In this document: one piece after another, positions 45,908 through 51,849 of the stretch | Numbering within the stretch: position 1 is the stretch's first letter | How the letters are laid out: each line of letters starts with the position of its first letter | Origin: Escherichia phage EcSzw-2 | Sequence record: MH791400.1 | Direction: 5' to 3' (one strand) | DNA: 64,000 nt | The notes under the pieces: generated by a model | The model's input: the letters and a program-made list of their open reading frames with translations, nothing else | Databases searched by the model: none | What the model was told of the DNA's origin: nothing | Made by a program: the position numbers and the translations under genes

Positions 45908-47524
45908 TTAACGTCTAAGCCCCTCATAAGGATTGCTTCTCACTAAATCAGTGTGAGTACCCATAGAAGGTGGCTTGAATAGTTTTACTTCGTTGAGACT
46001 GTTGAAAGCATCGCTTGTGGCATCCACTTGGTCATCCTTGGTTTTCCCATCTCCACAAAAACCTTCCAGTTCTTGGAAATAGGCTTCGTTCCAGCTACCT
46101 CTAACGATTTTTACCAATCCTGCTTCTGAAGCAGCAGAGAAACCCGCAAAACGGGTAACTTTATCTTTATTGGTTGGTTTGGCTCTTGCACGATAACCTT
46201 TCTCGGCAAGTTTTCTGATAAGAGATGTTGCGTAGGATTTACCAGCAGCGCCTGGGTCTTGAGGAATAAAGATACCAGTACGTTTGCCGTCGCTTTCAGC
46301 AGTCAAGTTAATTTGTGTCTCGACTCCAGAAGGTCTATCTCTAAATCTTACTACGTTCATGACATAATAGCAACCATCTTTTTTAGATTTAGCCATTCTA
46401 ACACCCGCTGTCCAGTCAGGGTTAGGGTTAACTTCAGAAGGTAAAGTAGCTGCTAAGTCCCATGCTCTAACGTCAAATACGTCAGGTGGAACTGAGTCAA
46501 CAATCTCACACCATTGCCTTTGCCAATAGTTAGAACCTTCTGCACGAGCTTTCCAGTTACCAAATCTCAAACGTGCAACGTTTACTGGAGTGTTGTTTTC
46601 CAGCTTACCACGATACTTCGGTTCCAAGAAGTCAAGAATTGGGTTATCATCAATCGTACCAGAGATAAAGGTATACGTCTGAGGAATCTCCAGAGGGAAC
46701 ATTTCAAGAATCTTATCTCTATCCCAATCAGATACCATCACACCATCATTCATCACATACCAACGAATACGACCACATTTCTCAGGGTCTGGGTAACCCT
46801 CTTCGTCTAAGAACGGTTCTACCCAATCATAAATGAAGTGGTCTCTGTCTGGGTTCATGGAAATCTTCATGTAAGAGTCACCTTCAGCACCAGAACGTAA
46901 ACGAGTTTGCAGGTATGAAATCTGTGACGCAGAGAAGTGTGTACCTTCGTCAAAGTAAATTGCTGAGTATTCAATACCCTGATGACCTTCAGCGTGTTTT
47001 TCAAGTTCTAAGTAGGTAAACTTGATAGTAGCCCCAGAAGGGAATACAATAGTCATCTTTTGTTCATGTGGAACACCACCGAACTTACCAAAAAGCTTCT
47101 TCGCAGCAGGCCATAAACCACCTTGTAACTGTGTCGTGTTTCGACGGAAGTATACAGCGTTGTAGTTAGGGTCTTCGATAAATCTGAGTGAATCCATCAG
47201 CAAAGCAGCAGTCTTACCAGCACCAGCCGCACCACCATATAGAACTAAGTCAGCATTTGTGTTAAGAAATACTTCCTGAGAGCCGGGTTGTGGAGCTACA
47301 TAGTTCTTATCAGTCATAAGTTTGAAGATAAGTCTTACTTGGTCTGGAGTGTATCTTAATAAAGTCAGAATCTGAGTAGGAAGGAATTTAGAGGGGTCTT
47401 TACCAAATGATTTGATAATATCTTTAACTTCATCAGAAAGCCCCAACTCTCCAGCTAGGACTTTCCTTACATCTTCCACTCGCTTCTGCTTAACAGCATT
47501 CAAATCCATTAAGCGCCTCCGCAA
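45908..47524 (-). CDS. terminase large subunit
   Basis: 538 aa; Walker A LYGGAAGAGKT; C-terminal nuclease-like acidic motifs; first gene of the late operon. Confidence 0.85.
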   Translation of the reverse strand: MRRRLMDLNAVKQKRVEDVRKVLAGELGLSDEVKDIIKSFGKDPSKFLPTQILTLLRYTPDQVRLIFKLMTDKNYVAPQPGSQEVFLNTNADLVLYGGAAGAGKTAALLMDSLRFIEDPNYNAVYFRRNTTQLQGGLWPAAKKLFGKFGGVPHEQKMTIVFPSGATIKFTYLELEKHAEGHQGIEYSAIYFDEGTHFSASQISYLQTRLRSGAEGDSYMKISMNPDRDHFIYDWVEPFLDEEGYPDPEKCGRIRWYVMNDGVMVSDWDRDKILEMFPLEIPQTYTFISGTIDDNPILDFLEPKYRGKLENNTPVNVARLRFGNWKARAEGSNYWQRQWCEIVDSVPPDVFDVRAWDLAATLPSEVNPNPDWTAGVRMAKSKKDGCYYVMNVVRFRDRPSGVETQINLTAESDGKRTGIFIPQDPGAAGKSYATSLIRKLAEKGYRARAKPTNKDKVTRFAGFSAASEAGLVKIVRGSWNEAYFQELEGFCGDGKTKDDQVDATSDAFNSLNEVKLFKPPSMGTHTDLVRSNPYEGLRR

Positions 47525-47530
47525 ATAGAA

Positions 47531-47728
47531 TTATTCAGCAGCAACTTCTGGAGACTCAACACCAAACTTCTCATCAACTGCGTTTAACAGTTCGTCCATG
47601 TTGGTTTCTTTAATGTCTTTACCAGTTGCATTAGCTAGACGGTGAGCAACACTGATAATAGTGTTCTGCAACAGTTCGGCTCTTTTGTTTGCTTCATAAA
47701 GTTCTTTATAAACATTAGTCTCGTTCAT
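47531..47728 (-). CDS. small hypothetical protein upstream of terminase (65 aa)
   Basis: ORF track; too small to assert a small-terminase role. Confidence 0.3.
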   Translation of the reverse strand: MNETNVYKELYEANKRAELLQNTIISVAHRLANATGKDIKETNMDELLNAVDEKFGVESPEVAAE

Positions 47729-47854
47729 TGTATTTCTCCAAAAATAATAAGTGAATGGTTCCCCTGAAAAAAGACGGCGCAGAGACCGTCAAGGAGAAAC
47801 CACAATGTATGCCAGAGACATACTGTATAAGCCTTCTTATAAAGTATACATCTG

Positions 47855-47916
47855 TAAAAAAGCCCTGTCTAAAAATACTCTTCGGTAGCGAAAGGAAGAA
47901 TACTCGTAGCAGGGCG
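47855..47916 (-). terminator. long structured hairpin plus U6-7 downstream of the last tRNA (end of tRNA operon)
   Basis: GCCCTG (47862-47867) pairs with CAGGGC (47910-47915) around a nested hairpin; plus A7 at 47855-47861 gives U-run on minus. Confidence 0.5.
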
Positions 47917-47950
47917 TTATTATTTTATTTTGAGAGAGAGTAAAATAATT

Positions 47951-48026
47951 TGGAGCGTCGAAAGGGAGTCGAACCCTCATAATCCTGTTTTGCAGACAGG
48001 TACATAGCCATTTCTGTCATCGACGC
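47951..48026 (-). tRNA. tRNA-Cys (anticodon GCA)
   Basis: Manual fold: acceptor GCGUCGA/UCGACGC, T-arm GAGGGUUCGACUCCC, anticodon loop CUGCAAA, U73, CCA encoded. Confidence 0.8.
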
Positions 48027-48033
48027 ATTAAAT

Positions 48034-48126
48034 TGGAGGAAGATACCAGACTTGAACTGGTACGCCGATTTCTCGGTTACTGACAGTTTAGCAAACTGTT
48101 CCCTTACCTTTTAGGGTTAATCTTCC
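48034..48126 (-). tRNA. tRNA-Ser (anticodon GCU), type II with long variable arm
   Basis: 93 nt; acceptor GGAAGAU/AUCUUCC; anticodon stem ACAGU/ACUGU with loop UUGCUAA; long extra arm; CCA encoded. Confidence 0.75.
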
Positions 48127-48128
48127 AA

Positions 48129-48863
48129 TTATTTGTTCAAGGCATCCTTCATTTCTGGAGTTGCAATTGAATCAATCACGCCAGTTTTACAAGCATCATC
48201 AAACCAGTCTGGTAAGACACCTGCAAGGAAACCATTAATATTCGTTTTCAAGTAATCAGCAATTAACGCTGCTTCATCTGCAATCATCTGAGTGACCTCA
48301 TTAGTGTATGCAGTAATCTTAGCAATGCCCTGATTAATCGCTGTAACGGCTTGTGAGGCTAAGGAAGAGATAGTGTCTAGTCCTTTGTCGATTGCGTCTT
48401 TTAAGTCGCTTAGAATGCCATTCACAGTGTCTATGGAGGTGTTAATCAAATCCATAGCTTGTTGACCGTACTCTGTAGCTACTCCCATGATTCCACTAAA
48501 CGGTGTACAACCAACTTGTTCTCCTGCTGCACCCATAACGTTAGAGTAACCTTTAGCTACCTGCATACGTGATGAGAACTCATCTACAGAAGTCTGACCG
48601 TATTGAGTCAGTGTGTTAGTTGTCGTTGTAGTGCTTCCAAGGCTCGTTGAGAAGCTACTTAACAAGGCTGTAGTCAAACCAGCAGCAATAAGTTTATCTT
48701 TTACTGTAGGGTCTGATACCGAGCTAATAGAGCTTACTAATGAAGTAGAAGCGGCAATTGTGCCACCAAGGATTGCTGCACCAGTAATAAGGGGGTTGGA
48801 AAACCCGTTACCGGATTTCAGGAGATTAAAAATCTCTTTACCTTGTTCTGTCATCTCTTTCAT
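48129..48863 (-). CDS. hypothetical Ser/Thr-rich protein (244 aa) embedded in tRNA array
   Basis: ORF track; stop at 48129-48131 abuts tRNA-Ser 5' end. Confidence 0.45.
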   Translation of the reverse strand: MKEMTEQGKEIFNLLKSGNGFSNPLITGAAILGGTIAASTSLVSSISSVSDPTVKDKLIAAGLTTALLSSFSTSLGSTTTTTNTLTQYGQTSVDEFSSRMQVAKGYSNVMGAAGEQVGCTPFSGIMGVATEYGQQAMDLINTSIDTVNGILSDLKDAIDKGLDTISSLASQAVTAINQGIAKITAYTNEVTQMIADEAALIADYLKTNINGFLAGVLPDWFDDACKTGVIDSIATPEMKDALNK

Positions 48864-48880
48864 TAAGCACCTTTTGAAAT

Positions 48881-48956
48881 TGGCGGGTTAGTGGGATTTG
48901 AACCCTCTTCTCATGTTTTTCAGACACGCGCTTTAACCATATAAGCTACTTAACCC
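48881..48956 (-). tRNA. tRNA-Phe (anticodon GAA)
   Basis: Acceptor GGGUUAA/CUAACCC (one mismatch), T-loop UUCAAAU, anticodon loop CUGAAAA. Confidence 0.75.
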
Positions 48957-48964
48957 ATTAAATT

Positions 48965-49041
48965 TGGGGTGACCTACGGGAATCGAACCCGTATAGACCA
49001 TGTTCACAGCATGGGTCATTATCCATTTATGATAAGGCCAC
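48965..49041 (-). tRNA. tRNA-His (anticodon GUG)
   Basis: Anticodon stem CCAUG/CAUGG, loop CUGUGAA; discriminator C; T-arm ACGGGUUCGAUUCCCGU. Confidence 0.75.
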
Positions 49042-49072
49042 ATGTAAGGACTCTCGTAAGAACCCTTAGAAG

Positions 49073-49148
49073 TGGCAGCAGCGTAAGGATTTGAACCTTA
49101 ATCTTTCAGCTTCAGAGGCTGGAGCATTGCCAGTTATGCTACACTGCT
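49073..49148 (-). tRNA. tRNA-Gln (anticodon CUG)
   Basis: 76 nt; D-stem GCAU/AUGC; anticodon loop CUCUGAA; discriminator G. Confidence 0.65.
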
Positions 49149-49155
49149 ATTAATT

Positions 49156-49234
49156 TGGTACTCCATATCGGATTCGAACCGATACATAACACAGATTTTA
49201 AGTCTGGCCTCTCTGCCAATTGGAGTAATGGAGC
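49156..49234 (-). tRNA. tRNA with leucine anticodon UAA but short variable region (putative type-I tRNA-Leu)
   Basis: Acceptor GCUCCAU/AUGGAGU; 3-bp D-stem with 11-nt D-loop CAAUUGGCAGA; anticodon loop CUUAAAA; A73; no long extra arm. Confidence 0.5.
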
Positions 49235-49236
49235 AT

Positions 49237-49312
49237 TGGCGGGGGATGTTGGAATTGAACCAACTTCTTCGATTTCAAAGACCGAGGTTTTAACCTTGTA
49301 AACTAATCCCCT
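49237..49312 (-). tRNA. tRNA-Gln (anticodon UUG)
   Basis: D-stem GUUU/AAAC; anticodon stem UCGGU/AUCGA, loop CUUUGAA; T-arm GUUGGUUCAAUUCCAAC; 1-72 mismatch. Confidence 0.6.
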
Positions 49313-49320
49313 TTAAATCT

Positions 49321-49878
49321 TTACTTTCTTAGTGGATGAATAAAGAATGCCAACATAATTCTTTCCCTTGAGAATGCTCTTTCTTCTGGGACAACACTTT
49401 TAAGTTTCCATCCAACATAAATTCTCCAGTAAAACTGTTTACCAAAGACTTTAATTGATGGGATAAAAGCGAATAATCCCCAAGCATTACTATTCCACAT
49501 TAGGAGATAACCTGTCTGATTATCTTCAGGGTTAGAACTTACGTTGATATTACCTTTCCACTTAGTAACATCTTTTACATCTCTTCCCAATACATGGTAA
49601 GAGAAGTTATAAGCTTTGTTTCTCCAGAGCCATCCAACTCTCTGCATATAAACACCGAGCTTGCCAATCTTTCGAATCTTAGCCCACCGTTCAACGTGAC
49701 CTTTGTCACCGTCAATCGGGTTGTCATAAGTCTCCATCCATCTGAATCCAAAAGGCAAGTGACCTTTCTTCTCACTGTAGAATGGAACTACAAAGGGTGC
49801 TAAGATTACTGCTAAGATTGCTGCAAATGGCTCTAGCAAAGCTAGGAAAATCCATGAAGCATACTTCAAATATCTCAT
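49321..49878 (-). CDS. hypothetical membrane protein (185 aa) embedded in tRNA array
   Basis: ORF track; N-terminal hydrophobic segment IFLALLEPFAAILAVILAPFVVPF; C-terminal codons verified against sequence. Confidence 0.45.
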   Translation of the reverse strand: MRYLKYASWIFLALLEPFAAILAVILAPFVVPFYSEKKGHLPFGFRWMETYDNPIDGDKGHVERWAKIRKIGKLGVYMQRVGWLWRNKAYNFSYHVLGRDVKDVTKWKGNINVSSNPEDNQTGYLLMWNSNAWGLFAFIPSIKVFGKQFYWRIYVGWKLKSVVPEERAFSRERIMLAFFIHPLRK

Positions 49879-49897
49879 TTAAATAGCCTCTTTAAAT

Positions 49898-49974
49898 TGG
49901 TGCAGAATAAGGGATTCGAACCCCTAACAAACAACTTCGTAGGTTGCTGCTCTATCCATTTGAACTAATTCTGC
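49898..49974 (-). tRNA. tRNA-Arg (anticodon ACG)
   Basis: Acceptor GCAGAAU/AUUCUGC; anticodon stem GCAAC/GUUGU, loop CUACGAA; T-loop UUCGAAU. Confidence 0.75.
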
Positions 49975-50136
49975 AATGTTCTTTTGAGATTCCTGTCTAG
50001 CTCTCTTCTTATCTCTTCTGAGAAAGCGTCTACGATGGTCTGTACGCCACTTGTAGTAATCTTCTTCACCATCGTGAGAAGCACAGCAACCACAACTTGC
50101 AATTTCAACTTTACCGTGTCTACCATAAGGCTTCAT
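49924..50136 (-). CDS. small Cys-rich basic ORF (70 aa) whose 3' end overlaps tRNA-Arg
   Basis: AGGAGA SD 5 nt upstream of ATG at 50134-50136; CGCC...H motif; last about 17 codons overlap the tRNA on the same strand, so coding status is uncertain. Confidence 0.3.
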   Translation of the reverse strand: MKPYGRHGKVEIASCGCCASHDGEEDYYKWRTDHRRRFLRRDKKRARQESQKNIAELVQMDRAATYEVVC

Positions 50137-50152
50137 AGGAATCTCCTAAAAT

Positions 50153-50230
50153 TGGTGTTCCAAGACGGATTCGAACCGTCACTAATACAAGGTTTGAGCT
50201 TGCATCCTCTGCCAATTGGGATACTGGAAC
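50153..50230 (-). tRNA. tRNA with leucine anticodon CAA but short variable region (putative type-I tRNA-Leu)
   Basis: Acceptor GUUCCAG/UUGGAAC; D-loop CAAUUGGCAGA; anticodon stem GCAAG/CUUGU, loop CUCAAAC; A73. Confidence 0.5.
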
Positions 50231-50232
50231 AT

Positions 50233-50307
50233 TGGTACTCGCTGAAGGACTTGAACCTTCTTCACCAACTTGTAAGGATGGGGCTTTACCGTATAAACTA
50301 AGCGAGT
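50233..50307 (-). tRNA. tRNA-Val (anticodon UAC)
   Basis: Perfect acceptor ACUCGCU/AGCGAGU; anticodon loop CUUACAA; T-arm GAAGGUUCAAGUCCUUC. Confidence 0.8.
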
Positions 50308-50403
50308 ATGAAAAGAGGTCTGAAGTTGTGCCGCTAACTCAACTCCGTGGAATTTGTTACGGTCTTCAGTTGACTCAAGCGGTCTTTCACTCGACCTCTG
50401 AAT

Positions 50404-50480
50404 TGGTGCTGCTCACAGGAGTTGAACCTGCATCTCCATCCTTACAAGGGATGTGTAATAGCCAATTATACGAAAGCAGC
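50404..50480 (-). tRNA. tRNA-Thr (anticodon UGU)
   Basis: Anticodon stem CAUCC/GGAUG perfect, loop CUUGUAA; T-loop UUCAACU. Confidence 0.8.
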
Positions 50481-50486
50481 ATTATT

Positions 50487-50561
50487 TGGAGCATCCAGAG
50501 GGAATCGAACCCTCAACCTCAGTTTGGAAGACTGTAATTTTCCCGTTTAAACTATGGATGC
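50487..50561 (-). tRNA. tRNA-Gly (anticodon UCC)
   Basis: Acceptor GCAUCCA/UGGAUGC; anticodon loop CUUCCAA; T-arm GAGGGUUCGAUUCCCUC. Confidence 0.8.
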
Positions 50562-50567
50562 ACTAAT

Positions 50568-50643
50568 TGGTGGAGAAGCAGGGAATTGAACCCTGTACTT
50601 AAGTTTGCAAAACTTATGTTTTAACCATGTAAACTACATCCCC
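50568..50643 (-). tRNA. tRNA-Ala (anticodon UGC)
   Basis: D-stem GUUU/AAAC; anticodon stem UAAGU/ACUUA, loop UUUGCAA; T-arm CAGGGUUCAAUUCCCUG. Confidence 0.8.
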
Positions 50644-50649
50644 GATATT

Positions 50650-50725
50650 TGGTACAGGTGGAGGGAATTGAACCCATCGTCTTACTGATTAAGAGTCAGC
50701 CGCATAACCATTTTGCTACACCTGC
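50650..50725 (-). tRNA. tRNA-Lys (anticodon CUU), T-stem with two mismatches
   Basis: Acceptor GCAGGUG/CACCUGU; anticodon stem GCUGA/UCAGU, loop CUCUUAA; paralogous to tRNA at 52538-52613. Confidence 0.55.
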
Positions 50726-50732
50726 ATTAATT

Positions 50733-50809
50733 TGGTACACCTAGAGAGAGTCGAACTCACACTGAACAGATTCTAAGTCTGCTGCCTCTTCCAATTGGGC
50801 TATAGGTGC
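50733..50809 (-). tRNA. tRNA with leucine anticodon UAG but short variable region (putative type-I tRNA-Leu)
   Basis: Acceptor GCACCUA/UAGGUGU; D-loop CAAUUGGAAGA; anticodon stem GCAGA/UCUGU, loop CUUAGAA; A73. Confidence 0.5.
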
Positions 50810-50810
50810 A

Positions 50811-51263
50811 TTAAATCAAATGTCTTGAGAATTGACTATGACAATTTGGACACAAGAATCTTAAGTTTTCTTTTCTATCGTCTAACCAGTTTTCGTTGAT
50901 ATGGTCAACATCAAGTGTTAGTGGTTTACCTAACCATTCTGGTTGCTGTCCACACTTAGAGCATTTGTATTCAACACCAGAAGCTATTAAAGCCCTTCTA
51001 AGTTGTGTTGACCTTGCTCTTTCACCTGATTCACGAAGAATCAAGATTTCTTCAGGCTTTCTTTTTGGTAAAGTTTTAACCTTACCTGCCTTTTGTCCAA
51101 GGAAATGAGAAGTATCTAACTCAAACTTCTCTATAACACGTTTCAAGTGTGACTGAGAACCACCTGCTGGTTTTCTTCCAAGCTTGATAAGTACTTCTCT
51201 AAATGATACTGATTCTTTCACTAAAGGTTCAAGAACCTCTTTAGTCAAACTTCTACGTGTCAT
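50811..51263 (-). CDS. HNH homing endonuclease (150 aa) inside the tRNA array
   Basis: C-terminal HNH zinc motif CSKCGQQPEW...LDVDHINENWLDDRKENLRFLCPNCH; stop 50811-50813 two nt from the neighbouring tRNA. Confidence 0.7.
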   Translation of the reverse strand: MTRRSLTKEVLEPLVKESVSFREVLIKLGRKPAGGSQSHLKRVIEKFELDTSHFLGQKAGKVKTLPKRKPEEILILRESGERARSTQLRRALIASGVEYKCSKCGQQPEWLGKPLTLDVDHINENWLDDRKENLRFLCPNCHSQFSRHLI

Positions 51264-51342
51264 GTGTCAATCTCCCATTAAATCTTTGTAGAGAACTGCT
51301 AAGACGCCAAAGCAACAATGGTATCAAATGCCTTAACAATTC

Positions 51343-51366
51343 TCTAAAAAGACCTAACTGGTCTTT
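51343..51366 (-). terminator. hairpin AAAGACC-agtta-GGTCTTT with U-run on minus strand
   Basis: Perfect 7-bp inverted repeat 51348-51354 / 51360-51366, upstream of HNH gene. Confidence 0.45.
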
Positions 51367-51523
51367 GCATAGTCTTGTTTAATCCGGTGACTAGAACCTT
51401 TGGAGAGCTTGATATTATCTCTTCTCCGTGACACCTACTAGGTGCTTTACTGTGCGTGTACGACAATACACGAGGGAAACCGAACGCAACGACGAAGTAG
51501 CGCAGGTCTTAAATCTCATTAGG

Positions 51524-51611
51524 CGGTAGATAAAGGAGTCGAACCCTCACCGTATCACTACAATGGCAACAGTTTTCAAGACTGTTTGGCTTCCATTAGC
51601 CGCTATCTACC
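51524..51611 (-). tRNA. tRNA-Ser (anticodon UGA), type II
   Basis: Acceptor GGUAGAU/AUCUACC; anticodon stem ACAGU/ACUGU, loop CUUGAAA; long variable arm; only CC of CCA encoded. Confidence 0.7.
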
Positions 51612-51624
51612 CCTAATAAGACTT

Positions 51625-51707
51625 TGGCATGGGACGGAGGATTCGAACCCCTTTGAGTAAGTTTTGGAGGCTTACGCTCATGCCTTAGAGTCTTAACATC
51701 GTCCCAT
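51625..51707 (-). tRNA. atypical tRNA, probably tRNA-Trp (anticodon CCA), with about 7 extra nt between acceptor and D-stem
   Basis: Perfect acceptor AUGGGAC/GUCCCAU, T-arm AGGGGUUCGAAUCCUCC, anticodon loop CUCCAAA as in E. coli tRNA-Trp, but 5' region longer than canonical. Confidence 0.4.
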
Positions 51708-51849
51708 ACTACAATTCGAAGCTTACCGTATTATCACAACACTGTAAAGCCCCTTCTCAGATTTTTTACATGTTCTGGAAAACATGAGATACAGACCACC
51801 TCCATACAGGAAGACCCGCTAAGGTCGTCTAAGTAATCTGCTAACTATT

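What the first reader, a model, noticed from the sequence alone, without database searches (positions are those of the whole stretch)
50811..51520. Free-standing HNH homing endonuclease gene plus about 250-nt structured non-coding segment inside the tRNA array
An HNH endonuclease ORF abuts the tRNA at 50733-50809 and is preceded by a non-coding stretch with several hairpins (CACCTACTAGGTG, CGTGTACGACAATACACG, terminator-like AAAGACC...GGTCTTT at 51343-51366). Homing endonucleases inside phage tRNA clusters, as with segB in T4, suggest this block is a mobile insertion that may bias inheritance of flanking tRNA genes.
Basis: partly seen in the sequence, partly recalled or inferred. Interest (0 to 1): 0.45.

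Follow-up and report, generated by a model that had tools for sequence, protein, structure and literature searches.

The report
Mobile HNH nuclease gene beside tRNA-Leu
A small selfish nuclease gene sits exactly in front of a leucine tRNA gene in this Felix-O1-like phage and seems to have brought its own version of that tRNA, while the structured non-coding stretch next to it is a separate, universally conserved part of the phage's tRNA operon.

Summary
The window is Escherichia phage EcSzw_1 (Ounavirinae, Suspvirus). A 150-aa HNH ORF (50811-51263, minus strand, like all the tRNAs) stops 1 nt before tRNA-Leu(TAG). Upstream lies 257 nt of structured non-coding DNA.

The ORF is a polymorphic free-standing homing-endonuclease gene:
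- It is present in 9 of 253 related phage records, always at the same site.
- It is under purifying selection (dN/dS 0.02-0.13).
- Its history disagrees with the genome's (dS 0.55 against 0.046 in a neighbouring gene).

HNH-bearing phages carry a 'type A' tRNA-Leu, plus the first 11 nt of the ancestral 'type B' tRNA-Leu just upstream of the ORF. Pseudomonas Otagovirus phages show the same HNH-plus-own-tRNA-Leu swap. Among 76 homologue clusters, 50 have a tRNA within 60 nt of the stop: 27 are Leu(TAG) and 37 are some Leu.

The non-coding segment is not part of the mobile block. It occurs in all 253 relatives and has three parts: a variable hairpin, a ~130-nt ultraconserved core ending in a terminator-like hairpin, and a 16-bp leader hairpin. 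It matches no Rfam family and no group I intron.

Cleavage target and RNA function are inferred, not shown.

The parts
50811..51263 (-). HNH homing-endonuclease ORF, 150 aa. It has an N-terminal three-helix (HTH-like) domain and a C-terminal HNH/zinc-finger nuclease domain.
   Evidence: ORF listing. Pfam HNH above cutoff. PHROG 10822. Invariant C101/C104/C138/C141, D120-H121, N133 and H142 in 52 homologues. AF2 model at pLDDT 86, with weak fold matches to HNH nucleases. dN/dS 0.02-0.13.
51266..51276 (-). GGGAGATTGAC: the first 11 nt of the 'type B' tRNA-Leu(TAG) gene, left upstream of the ORF. Its GGGAG lies 8 nt before the ATG and probably serves as the ribosome-binding site.
   Evidence: It is identical to nt 1-11 of the tRNA-Leu in Si3, phiWec172 and EC6 (FelixO1 differs at nt 11) and is present in all HNH-bearing loci read.
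51276..51284 (-). Upstream copy of the 9-nt direct repeat GATTTAATG (the tRNA leader GATTTAAT plus G1).
50809..50817 (-). Downstream copy of GATTTAATG. It contains the ORF's last Ile codon, the TAA stop, one spacer T and G1 of tRNA-Leu.
   Evidence: HNH-less type-A phages carry exactly one copy at this point.
50733..50809 (-). tRNA-Leu(TAG) 'type A' allele, 77 nt with no long variable arm. This is the allele linked to the HNH gene.
   Evidence: ARAGORN and Rfam. Type A is in 91 records and type B in 162, with no record holding both; all 9 HNH-bearing records are type A.
51478..51521 (-). Spacer module I: the tRNA-Ser trailer followed by a hairpin whose sequence varies but whose fold is kept, then GGUUU. 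It is not part of the mobile element.
   Evidence: 20 sequence variants, falling into several visibly unrelated sequence families, all fold into a hairpin of -7 to -15 kcal/mol.
51346..51476 (-). Spacer module II: a ~130-nt ultraconserved core with small hairpins, ending in the terminator-like hairpin AAAGACC-loop-GGUCUUUUU (51346-51366). It is a candidate processed non-coding RNA and is not part of the mobile element.
   Evidence: 95-100% identical to the window's core in the 14 Suspvirus, Mooglevirus and Felixounavirus loci compared, and found in all 253 records. The few changes in stems are G-U compatible. No Rfam hit. No E. coli homologue.
51289..51346 (-). Spacer module III: a 16-bp hairpin immediately upstream of the tRNA leader. 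In HNH-less phages it sits directly before tRNA-Leu.
   Evidence: 9 of 16 pairs vary and 99.8% of cells stay paired. There is one compensatory U-A to G-C switch in 8 sequences. Pairing is 99.8% on the sense strand and 82% on the antisense strand.

Best explanation
The finding contains two separate things.

(1) ORF 50811-51263 is a free-standing HNH homing-endonuclease gene.
- It belongs to a large phage family (PHROG 10822). Its members sit inside tRNA arrays on the tRNA strand, with the stop codon abutting or overlapping the 5' end of a tRNA gene, usually tRNA-Leu(TAG).
- In this phage lineage it arrived as a unit with its own tRNA-Leu(TAG) allele, type A. That unit replaced the ancestral type-B gene from nucleotide 12 onward.
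- The 11 leftover nucleotides now supply the ribosome-binding site.

Inferred mechanism:
- The gene is translated from the tRNA-operon transcript.
- In a mixed infection the enzyme cuts the HNH-less tRNA-Leu locus of a related phage, most probably the type-B gene.
- Recombinational repair then copies HNH plus type-A tRNA-Leu into that phage, so it keeps a working Leu(TAG) tRNA and becomes immune.
- Later deletion between the flanking 9-nt repeats GATTTAATG would remove the ORF and leave the common HNH-less type-A phages.

(2) The 257-nt segment 51264-51521 is a resident structured RNA region of the tRNA operon, found in all relatives. It has three modules: a variable hairpin after tRNA-Ser, an ultraconserved ~130-nt core ending in a weak terminator-like hairpin, and a 16-bp leader hairpin before tRNA-Leu. 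It most likely acts as a processed stable small RNA and/or a processing or termination module, as T4's species I/II RNAs do within that phage's tRNA cluster.

Status of the steps:
- Shown: domain content, polymorphism, junctions, allele linkage, selection, family-wide tRNA-Leu adjacency, conservation and strand-specific pairing of the spacer.
- Inferred: nuclease activity, the target site, homing, the expression route, the deletion route, and any function of the RNA.
For: HNH identity:
-.

Polymorphism at one site:
- The ORF is in 9 of 253 Ounavirinae records. Insertion boundaries are base-exact.

Mobility:
- EcSzw_1 versus mistaenkt: HNH dS 0.55, against 0.046 in the neighbouring 185-aa ORF.
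- The Suspvirus mistaenkt allele is 95% identical at nucleotide level to Felixounavirus alleles.
- dN/dS is 0.02-0.13, and the 7 alleles read in full are all intact.

Allele linkage:
- Type A in 91 records and type B in 162, with none holding both. Every HNH-bearing phage is type A and carries the type-B 11-mer upstream.
- Type B is shared with distant Pectobacterium Ounavirinae, so it is probably ancestral.

Independent replicate:
- Otagovirus phiPsa347 (with HNH) and phiPsa374 (without) have near-identical flanks.
- The divergent block includes a different tRNA-Leu(TAG) allele and ends exactly at that tRNA's 3' end.

Family-wide pattern:
- 92 loci fall into 76 clusters, and 50 of these have a tRNA within 60 nt of the stop.
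- Of those 50: 27 Leu(TAG), 37 any Leu, 45 Leu/Tyr/Ser.
- 287 of 290 tRNAs are on the same strand as the ORF. The modal geometry overlaps tRNA nt 1-10.
- Binomial p is about 1e-14 against a 10% baseline.

Precedent:
- SegB targets tRNA genes (PMC2330249).

Spacer:
-.
Against: - No cleavage or cross data exist, so the target site is unknown.
- In Otagovirus the HNH-linked allele is B-like and the HNH-less allele is A-like, the reverse of Ounavirinae. A simple rule that one allele class is the target does not hold across the family.
- The leader TTTAAT|G recurs before other tRNAs and after a second endonuclease ORF in SP22. The 9-nt repeat may therefore reflect a common leader rather than a recombination scar.
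- No extended co-conversion tract is visible downstream.
- How the 11-nt type-B remnant arose is not explained by clean homologous repair.
- For the spacer, the core helices never vary, so they are untested. Only one truly compensatory pair exists, probably from a single event.
- The terminator-like hairpin was not called by the consensus scan.
- No expression data exist.
Confidence: 0.68

Rival explanations
1. The HNH gene is an old vertical resident of the Ounavirinae tRNA array that most lineages have lost. It is not currently mobile, and the type A and type B tRNA-Leu alleles are an unrelated ancient polymorphism.
For: Only 9 of 253 records keep it, which many losses could explain. HNH-less type-A phages are common, at 82 records. 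Three deep HNH allele lineages exist, with dS 0.5-0.75.
Against: HNH dS between two phages of the same genus is about 12 times that of the adjacent gene. A Suspvirus allele is 95% identical to Felixounavirus alleles. The type-B 11-mer upstream of every copy shows replacement of a type-B gene. The same swap occurs in Otagovirus. Strong purifying selection on a non-essential ORF fits an active element.
Confidence: 0.1
2. The nuclease mainly benefits the phage rather than itself. It may exclude or degrade the tRNA arrays of co-infecting relatives (marker exclusion), or promote recombination that reshuffles tRNA repertoires. Homing would then be a side effect.
For: The SegB paper discusses exclusion of T2L tRNA markers. 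Morgado and Vicente cite HNH genes as drivers of tRNA repertoire diversity in mycobacteriophages (PMC6409571). Ounavirinae tRNA arrays are strongly mosaic and hold several different endonuclease ORFs.
Against: It is present in under 4% of related phages, which argues against a generally useful function. Downstream haplotypes do not track the gene. The two readings are not mutually exclusive and cannot be separated by sequence alone.
Confidence: 0.15
3. One reading: the ORF and the ~250-nt structured segment form one mobile insertion, possibly a degenerate group I intron with its endonuclease.
For: They are adjacent, and the segment is highly structured.
Against: The segment is present in all 253 relatives, whether or not they carry the HNH gene. 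The insertion boundary lies between the two. There is no Rfam intron hit at E<=1. Neither tRNA-Ser nor tRNA-Leu is interrupted.
Confidence: 0.02
4. The conserved spacer core is not an RNA gene. It is either a DNA-level site (promoter, regulator or packaging site) or a small protein-coding gene such as Felix O1 ORF102 / wV8 gp51.
For: Near-invariance at almost every base is unusual for simple hairpins. Felix O1 and wV8 annotate a ~65-aa ORF across it.
Against: That ORF starts inside tRNA-Ser. It is broken in the window, where only 34- and 40-aa ORFs remain. Indels that are not multiples of 3 lie upstream of the core, and one phage has a 1-nt deletion within it. No sigma-70-like promoter is called in the segment. 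All variation in helices is G-U compatible on the tRNA strand only.
Confidence: 0.15

Closest known systems
T4 SegB (GIY-YIG free-standing homing endonuclease in the T4 tRNA cluster; PMC2330249)
   Same: It is a free-standing endonuclease gene inside a phage tRNA gene cluster and is absent from close relatives. Its target lies in tRNA genes, and homing carries neighbouring tRNA genes along.
   Different: The nuclease fold differs (GIY-YIG against HNH). SegB recognises the generic T-psi-C motif of many tRNAs. This family is positionally tied to one tRNA species, Leu(TAG), and travels with its own allele of it.
T4 SegF/gene 56 and SegG/gene 32 paradigm (an endonuclease gene beside the gene it cuts in relatives); from my own knowledge and as cited in PMC2330249
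   Same: The endonuclease gene sits next to a conserved gene whose variant in endonuclease-free phages is presumed to be the target. The linked allele is presumed resistant and is co-inherited.
   Different: Here the neighbour is a tRNA gene and the whole gene is swapped for a very divergent allele, leaving an 11-nt remnant of the old one. Cleavage has not been tested.
T5 hegA and F-TflI/II/IV (HNH endonucleases in the T5 tRNA region)
   Same: They are HNH nucleases encoded among phage tRNA genes.
   Different: Only the HNH domain aligns: 34% identity over ~70 residues, E 1e-6. hegA is 227 aa with C-terminal HTH domains and follows tRNA-Ile rather than preceding tRNA-Leu.
T4 species I/II stable RNAs (rnaC/rnaD) in the tRNA cluster; named in PMC2330249 Fig. 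1, otherwise from my own knowledge
   Same: They are non-tRNA structured RNA genes embedded in a phage tRNA operon, and their function is unknown.
   Different: Whether 51346-51476 yields a discrete stable RNA is unknown.

Membership tests
HNH endonuclease superfamily (Pfam PF01844) | Profile match above the curated threshold | tested here: met
   24.1 bits against a 21.4 cutoff, residues 101-144. PHROG 10822 at 1.9e-66.
HNH endonuclease superfamily (Pfam PF01844) | Beta-beta-alpha-metal core with the His general base, Asn and metal-binding His, plus two CxxC zinc pairs | tested here: met
   D120-H121, N133, H142 and C101/C104/C138/C141 are invariant in 52 homologues. The AF2 model shows strands 116-118 and 135-137 and helix 139-146. 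Foldseek's best matches are HNH nucleases, but at weak E-values of 0.01-2.
HNH endonuclease superfamily (Pfam PF01844) | Metal-dependent DNA cleavage | not testable with these tools
   Needs a biochemical assay.
Free-standing homing endonuclease gene | Presence/absence polymorphism at the same locus in close relatives | tested here: met
   9 of 253 Ounavirinae records. PPSC2 and phiPsa347 alone among the Otagovirus phages listed.
Free-standing homing endonuclease gene | Not inside an intron or intein | tested here: met
   The ORF is intergenic, between the leader hairpin and tRNA-Leu. No intron model hit.
Free-standing homing endonuclease gene | Horizontal spread: a gene history that disagrees with the genome's | tested here: met
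   dS 0.55 against 0.046 in the neighbouring gene; 95% nucleotide identity across genera.
Free-standing homing endonuclease gene | Cuts the endonuclease-free allele, spares its own, and is over-inherited in mixed infection | not testable with these tools
   Needs cleavage assays and phage crosses.
SegB-type (GIY-YIG) tRNA-cluster endonucleases | GIY-YIG catalytic domain | tested here: not met
   Only HNH and zinc-ribbon profiles match. This is a functional analogue, not a member.
Group I intron with encoded endonuclease | Intron catalytic core detectable by covariance model; host gene interrupted | tested here: not met
   No Rfam hit at E<=1 in 50811-51521. Both flanking tRNAs are intact.
Intrinsic (Rho-independent) terminator, for 51346-51366 | G+C-rich stem followed by a U-tract | tested here: inconclusive
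   The stem has 7 bp with only 3 G-C pairs, and 3 of the 5 U residues are within the stem. The consensus scan did not call it. The stem is conserved, with G-U compatible changes and a variable loop.
Any described RNA family (Rfam 15), for the spacer | Covariance-model match | tested here: not met
   No match in 51264-51521 at E<=1 on either strand.

The most novel reading that the evidence does not exclude
PHROG-10822 HNH genes and their abutting tRNA-Leu genes may form a widespread class of 'tRNA gene-replacement' homing cassettes. The nuclease would destroy the resident tRNA-Leu(TAG) gene of a rival phage and install itself together with a divergent, immune but functional tRNA-Leu. Often the ORF's stop codon is built from tRNA positions 8-10. 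This would drive rapid turnover between A-like and B-like tRNA-Leu alleles across unrelated phage families. Separately, the ultraconserved ~130-nt core at 51346-51476 may be a new phage-encoded small RNA matured from the tRNA operon.
Probability: 0.3. Interest if true: 0.65.

Novelty: new member of a known kind. Interest (0 to 1): 0.48.

Why it matters
Homing endonucleases are known to sit in phage tRNA clusters, but only SegB has a mapped link to tRNA genes. Here a different nuclease fold shows a tight, family-wide positional tie to one tRNA species, with whole-allele replacement seen independently in two phage genera.

If the enzyme really cuts the alternative tRNA-Leu allele, that would explain why phage tRNA arrays are so mosaic. 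It would also give a simple natural system for studying how selfish nucleases avoid harming their host, by carrying a spare copy of the target. The enzyme might further serve as a source of tRNA-gene-specific nucleases.

The experiment is cheap: one small protein, three PCR substrates and a phage cross. The neighbouring ultraconserved non-coding core is unannotated in all 253 genomes and is a concrete candidate for a new phage small RNA.

Tried and rejected
- Rfam scan at E<=1 over 47500-54500: only tRNAs and sub-threshold noise, with nothing in the ORF or spacer.
- PDB sequence search with the protein: no meaningful hit.
- blastn of the spacer core against 5,426 E. coli genomes: no match, so it does not copy a host sRNA.
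- Short-match scan of the spacer against the whole window, looking for repeats or antisense targets: only the 9-13-nt tRNA leader motif recurs.
- Test of whether downstream Lys-Ala-Gly-Thr haplotypes co-segregate with the HNH gene or the Leu type (a co-conversion tract): they do not, and the array is a mosaic.
- Mycobacteriophage Estes gene 119 overlaps an A-like tRNA-Leu by 10 nt. It is not an HNH homologue.
- More distant homologues at 40-45% identity (Atu_ph07, Bohxovirus, LCK69) are not tRNA-Leu-adjacent, so the tie weakens with distance.
- Protein-coding reading of the spacer (Felix O1 ORF102): rejected because the frame is not conserved.
- Sigma-70 promoter between the terminator-like hairpin and the ORF: none called.
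Full report
**What the window is.** Region 50700-51650 is 100% identical to Escherichia phage EcSzw_1 (MH791413; Ounavirinae, Suspvirus). That GenBank record is marked UNVERIFIED. In the 7-kb stretch shown it annotates no tRNAs, and it calls the ORF 'hypothetical protein'. All 24 ARAGORN tRNAs between 47951 and 53756 are on the minus strand, so the array is transcribed right to left.

**The observation.** ORF 50811-51263 (minus strand, 150 aa) is real.
- Its TAA stop at 50811-50813 is followed by a single T and then G1 of tRNA-Leu(TAG) at 50733-50809.
- It passes Pfam HNH (24.1 bits; cutoff 21.4) and matches PHROG 10822 'HNH endonuclease' at 1.9e-66.
- In 52 homologues the two CxxC pairs (C101/C104, C138/C141), D120-H121, N133 and H142 are invariant.
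- An AlphaFold model (pLDDT 86) shows an N-terminal three-helix bundle and a C-terminal beta-beta-alpha unit.
- Foldseek matches for the C-terminal half are HNH nucleases: McrA, Cas5-HNH, Gme nicking HNH, GVE2 HNH, I-HmuI and colicins. The N-terminal half resembles winged-helix/HTH domains. All E-values are weak, at 0.01 or worse.

Upstream of the ORF in the direction of transcription lies 51264-51521, 258 nt with no credible ORF. The tRNA-sense strand folds with z = -3.2, and 0 of 200 shuffles fold as well. The other strand gives z = -1.6.

**The ORF is polymorphic; the non-coding segment is not.**
- Of 253 related phage records, only 9 (8 phages) contain the ORF: EcSzw_1, PC79-13, mistaenkt, Michonne, Maleficent, ECML-1, SP22 and pSJ21.
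- The 258-nt segment matches in all 253 records, and 242 of them cover at least 80% of it.
- Alignments give base-exact junctions.
- HNH-less phages read either ...CAAAGATTTAAT|GCACCTATAGCC (tRNA-Leu 'type A') or ...AAAGATTTAAT|GGGAGATTGAYGGTAATTGG (tRNA-Leu 'type B').
- HNH-bearing phages read ...AAAGATTTAAT|GGGAGATTGAC-AC-ATG...ORF...CATTTGATTTAA-T|GCACCTATAGCC.

The inserted block therefore begins with the first 11 nt of a type-B tRNA-Leu (window 51266-51276). Its GGGAG lies 8 nt before the ATG. The block ends with a second copy of the leader, so a 9-nt direct repeat GATTTAATG (51276-51284 and 50809-50817) flanks it. The structured segment lies wholly outside the insertion.

**A dimorphic tRNA-Leu locus.**
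- Types A and B are both tRNA-Leu(TAG) but differ in every stem.
- Counting by organism name, type A is in 91 records and type B in 162. They sum exactly to 253, and no record holds both.
- All 9 HNH-bearing records are type A.
- Type B is also the Leu(TAG) of distant Pectobacterium Ounavirinae, at 82-85% identity and in a different array context. This suggests type B is ancestral and type A was introduced.

**Evidence of mobility.** I compared seven HNH alleles.
- dN/dS is 0.02-0.13 and every allele is an intact 150 codons.
- EcSzw_1 and mistaenkt belong to the same genus. Their adjacent 185-aa ORF has dS 0.046, and the spacer and tRNA-Leu are 99-100% identical. Their HNH genes nevertheless have dS 0.55.
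- mistaenkt's allele is 95% identical at nucleotide level to alleles in the Felixounavirus phages SP22 and ECML-1.

So the gene's history is decoupled from the genome's.

**No long co-conversion tract.** Haplotypes of the 335 nt downstream (tRNA-Lys, Ala, Gly, Thr) are mosaic. They do not track HNH presence, Leu type or genus.

**An independent replicate.**
- The nearest homologues outside Ounavirinae (58-59% aa identity) are in Pseudomonas Otagovirus phages PPSC2 and phiPsa347 and in Vibrio phage D69.
- In PPSC2 and D69 the ORF's last 10-15 nt overlap the 5' end of a tRNA-Leu(TAG) on the same strand; phiPsa347's tRNA-Leu likewise begins where the HNH match ends.
- phiPsa347 (with HNH) and phiPsa374 (without) belong to the same species and have essentially identical flanks.
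- They differ by a block that ends exactly at the 3' end of tRNA-Leu(TAG) and contains two very different alleles of that tRNA.
- The HNH gene thus again comes with its own tRNA-Leu. Here the linked allele is B-like and the HNH-less allele is A-like.

**The family-wide pattern.**
- The family has 611 clusters at E<=1e-10 in the 5.8-billion-protein collection.
- I gathered 92 loci from IMG/VR, JGI metagenomes and GenBank phages. They fall into 76 clusters at 80% aa identity.
- 287 of 290 tRNAs in these loci are on the ORF's strand.
- 50 clusters have a tRNA within 60 nt downstream of the stop. Of these, 27 are Leu(TAG), 37 are some Leu, and 45 are Leu, Tyr or Ser.
- The commonest geometry is a 10-nt overlap in which tRNA positions 8-10 (UGA or UAG) form the stop codon.
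- In loci with wide flanks, Leu(TAG) makes up 7% of tRNAs. Getting 27 of 50 against a generous 10% baseline gives p of about 1e-14.
- By eye, two loci that ARAGORN failed to call as Leu(TAG) (L019, L020) also carry Leu(TAG)-like genes.
- The linked tRNA-Leu genes include A-like, B-like and canonical long-arm forms.
- At 40-45% identity the tie loosens.

**Mechanism: shown and inferred.**
- Shown: a selected, intact HNH nuclease gene; a polymorphic and horizontally exchanged insertion; linkage to a replaced tRNA-Leu allele in two genera; a family-wide position at the 5' edge of tRNA-Leu genes.
- Inferred, by analogy with SegB, which recognises a tRNA-gene motif and drives inheritance of the T4 tRNA region (PMC2330249), and with the SegF/SegG paradigm:
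  - the enzyme cuts the HNH-less tRNA-Leu locus of a co-infecting relative, most probably type B in Ounavirinae;
  - repair copies HNH plus type A;
  - the recipient keeps Leu(TAG) decoding and becomes immune;
  - the ORF can later be lost between the 9-nt repeats, giving the 82 HNH-less type-A records.
- Expression is presumably from the tRNA-operon transcript. RNase P cleavage 1 nt after the stop would define the mRNA's 3' end.

**Caveats on the mechanism.**
- The A/B polarity is reversed in Otagovirus.
- The TTTAAT|G leader recurs before other tRNAs and after another endonuclease ORF in SP22, so the repeat need not be a scar.
- The origin of the 11-nt remnant implies an illegitimate left junction.

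**The non-coding segment.** Thirty-three distinct spacers align into three modules.
- Module I (51478-51521) is the tRNA-Ser trailer plus a hairpin. Its sequence differs radically: there are 20 variants in several visibly unrelated families. All of them fold, at -7 to -15 kcal/mol, and are followed by GGUUU.
- Module II (51346-51476) is 95-100% identical to the window's core in the 14 loci from three genera that I compared, while synonymous sites in the HNH gene reach dS 0.5-0.75 between its allele lineages. It ends in AAAGACC-loop-GGUCUUUUU, whose loop varies and whose stem changes are all G-U compatible.
- Module III (51289-51346) is a 16-bp hairpin. Nine of its 16 pairs vary, 99.8% of cells remain paired, and there is one compensatory U-A to G-C switch in 8 sequences.

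Across all helices, pairing is 99.9% canonical on the tRNA strand and 85% on the opposite strand. This is the best evidence that selection acts on an RNA of that polarity.

**How strong the covariation evidence is.** It is modest. The core helices never vary, so they are untested. The single double change is probably one event. The shuffle control is exceeded for percentage paired, for cells with a change on both sides and for covariation score, but not for the two measures that count pairs or pair types.

**Other tests on the spacer.**
- No Rfam family matches.
- There is no E. coli homologue.
- No promoter is called in the segment.
- The ORF annotated across it in Felix O1 and wV8 does not keep its frame.

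I read the segment as a resident structured RNA region of the tRNA operon. It could be a processed stable RNA, like T4's species I/II RNAs within that phage's tRNA cluster, or a termination or processing module. Its function is unknown.

**Comparison with known systems, and novelty.** Endonuclease genes in phage tRNA clusters are known: SegB, the T5 F-Tfl enzymes and mycobacteriophage HNH genes. Several GenBank records already label this ORF 'HNH endonuclease'.
- It is not a SegB relative, because the fold differs.
- It shares only the HNH domain with T5 hegA.
- In the papers I could search, three things appear unreported: the family-wide tie to tRNA-Leu, the whole-allele replacement with an 11-nt remnant, and the conserved non-coding core.

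I file it as a new member of a known kind, of moderate interest.

Noticed in passing
window 51625-51712 (-): A tRNA-like sequence with an acceptor stem, T arm and CCA end. Only relaxed ARAGORN calls it, as 'tRNA-???' with a 4-base anticodon (agcg). Default ARAGORN and Rfam miss it. Its 3' end is conserved upstream of tRNA-Ser in Felix O1, Si3 and EC6.
   Followed up: partly
window 51845-51935 (-): A second tRNA-like fragment (T-arm GGTAGGAGTCGAACCTACC) in the 365-nt gap between tRNA-Ser(TGA) and tRNA-Arg(TCT). It may be a decayed tRNA.
   Followed up: no
window 53598-53672, 53123-53210, 52809-52884 (-): tRNA genes that default ARAGORN misses. Glu(TTC) scores 53.7 bits in Rfam. Tyr(GTA) and a possible Gln(CTG) appear only with relaxed thresholds or weak Rfam scores. 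The array probably holds more than 24 tRNAs.
   Followed up: partly
window 50733-50809, 50153-50230, 49156-49234 (-): All three tRNA-Leu genes of the phage are short (77-79 nt) and lack the long variable arm typical of bacterial tRNA-Leu. Many HNH-linked tRNA-Leu(TAG) genes in metagenomes are likewise 75-78 nt.
   Followed up: no
L099 (Escherichia phage SP22) 860-1273 and 2656-3003; L003 (mistaenkt) 3868 onward: Related phages carry additional, different endonuclease ORFs at other points in the same tRNA array. One of them ends ...GTTTAATG directly against tRNA-Thr. The window lacks these; tRNA-Gly and tRNA-Thr are only 6 nt apart here.
   Followed up: partly
window 52609-52621 (-): The 13-nt leader AAAGATTTAATGG that precedes the type-B tRNA-Leu remnant recurs exactly before tRNA-Lys(TTT), which also follows a long gap in the array.
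   Followed up: no
window 52260-52288 (-): [quoted passage not shown] This suggests the array is more than one transcription unit.
   Followed up: no
L029 1501-2000; L101 (phiPsa374) about 560-633: In one IMG/VR contig the HNH homologue is truncated and followed by a 3' tRNA fragment. phiPsa374 has a 3' tRNA fragment just upstream of its tRNA-Leu. Both look like scars of earlier insertion or replacement events.
   Followed up: no
window 49924-50136 (-): A 70-aa ORF overlaps tRNA-Arg(ACG) at 49898-49974. It is annotated as a hypothetical protein in relatives (Sf17_gp24, mistaenkt_112). Its coding status is doubtful.
   Followed up: no
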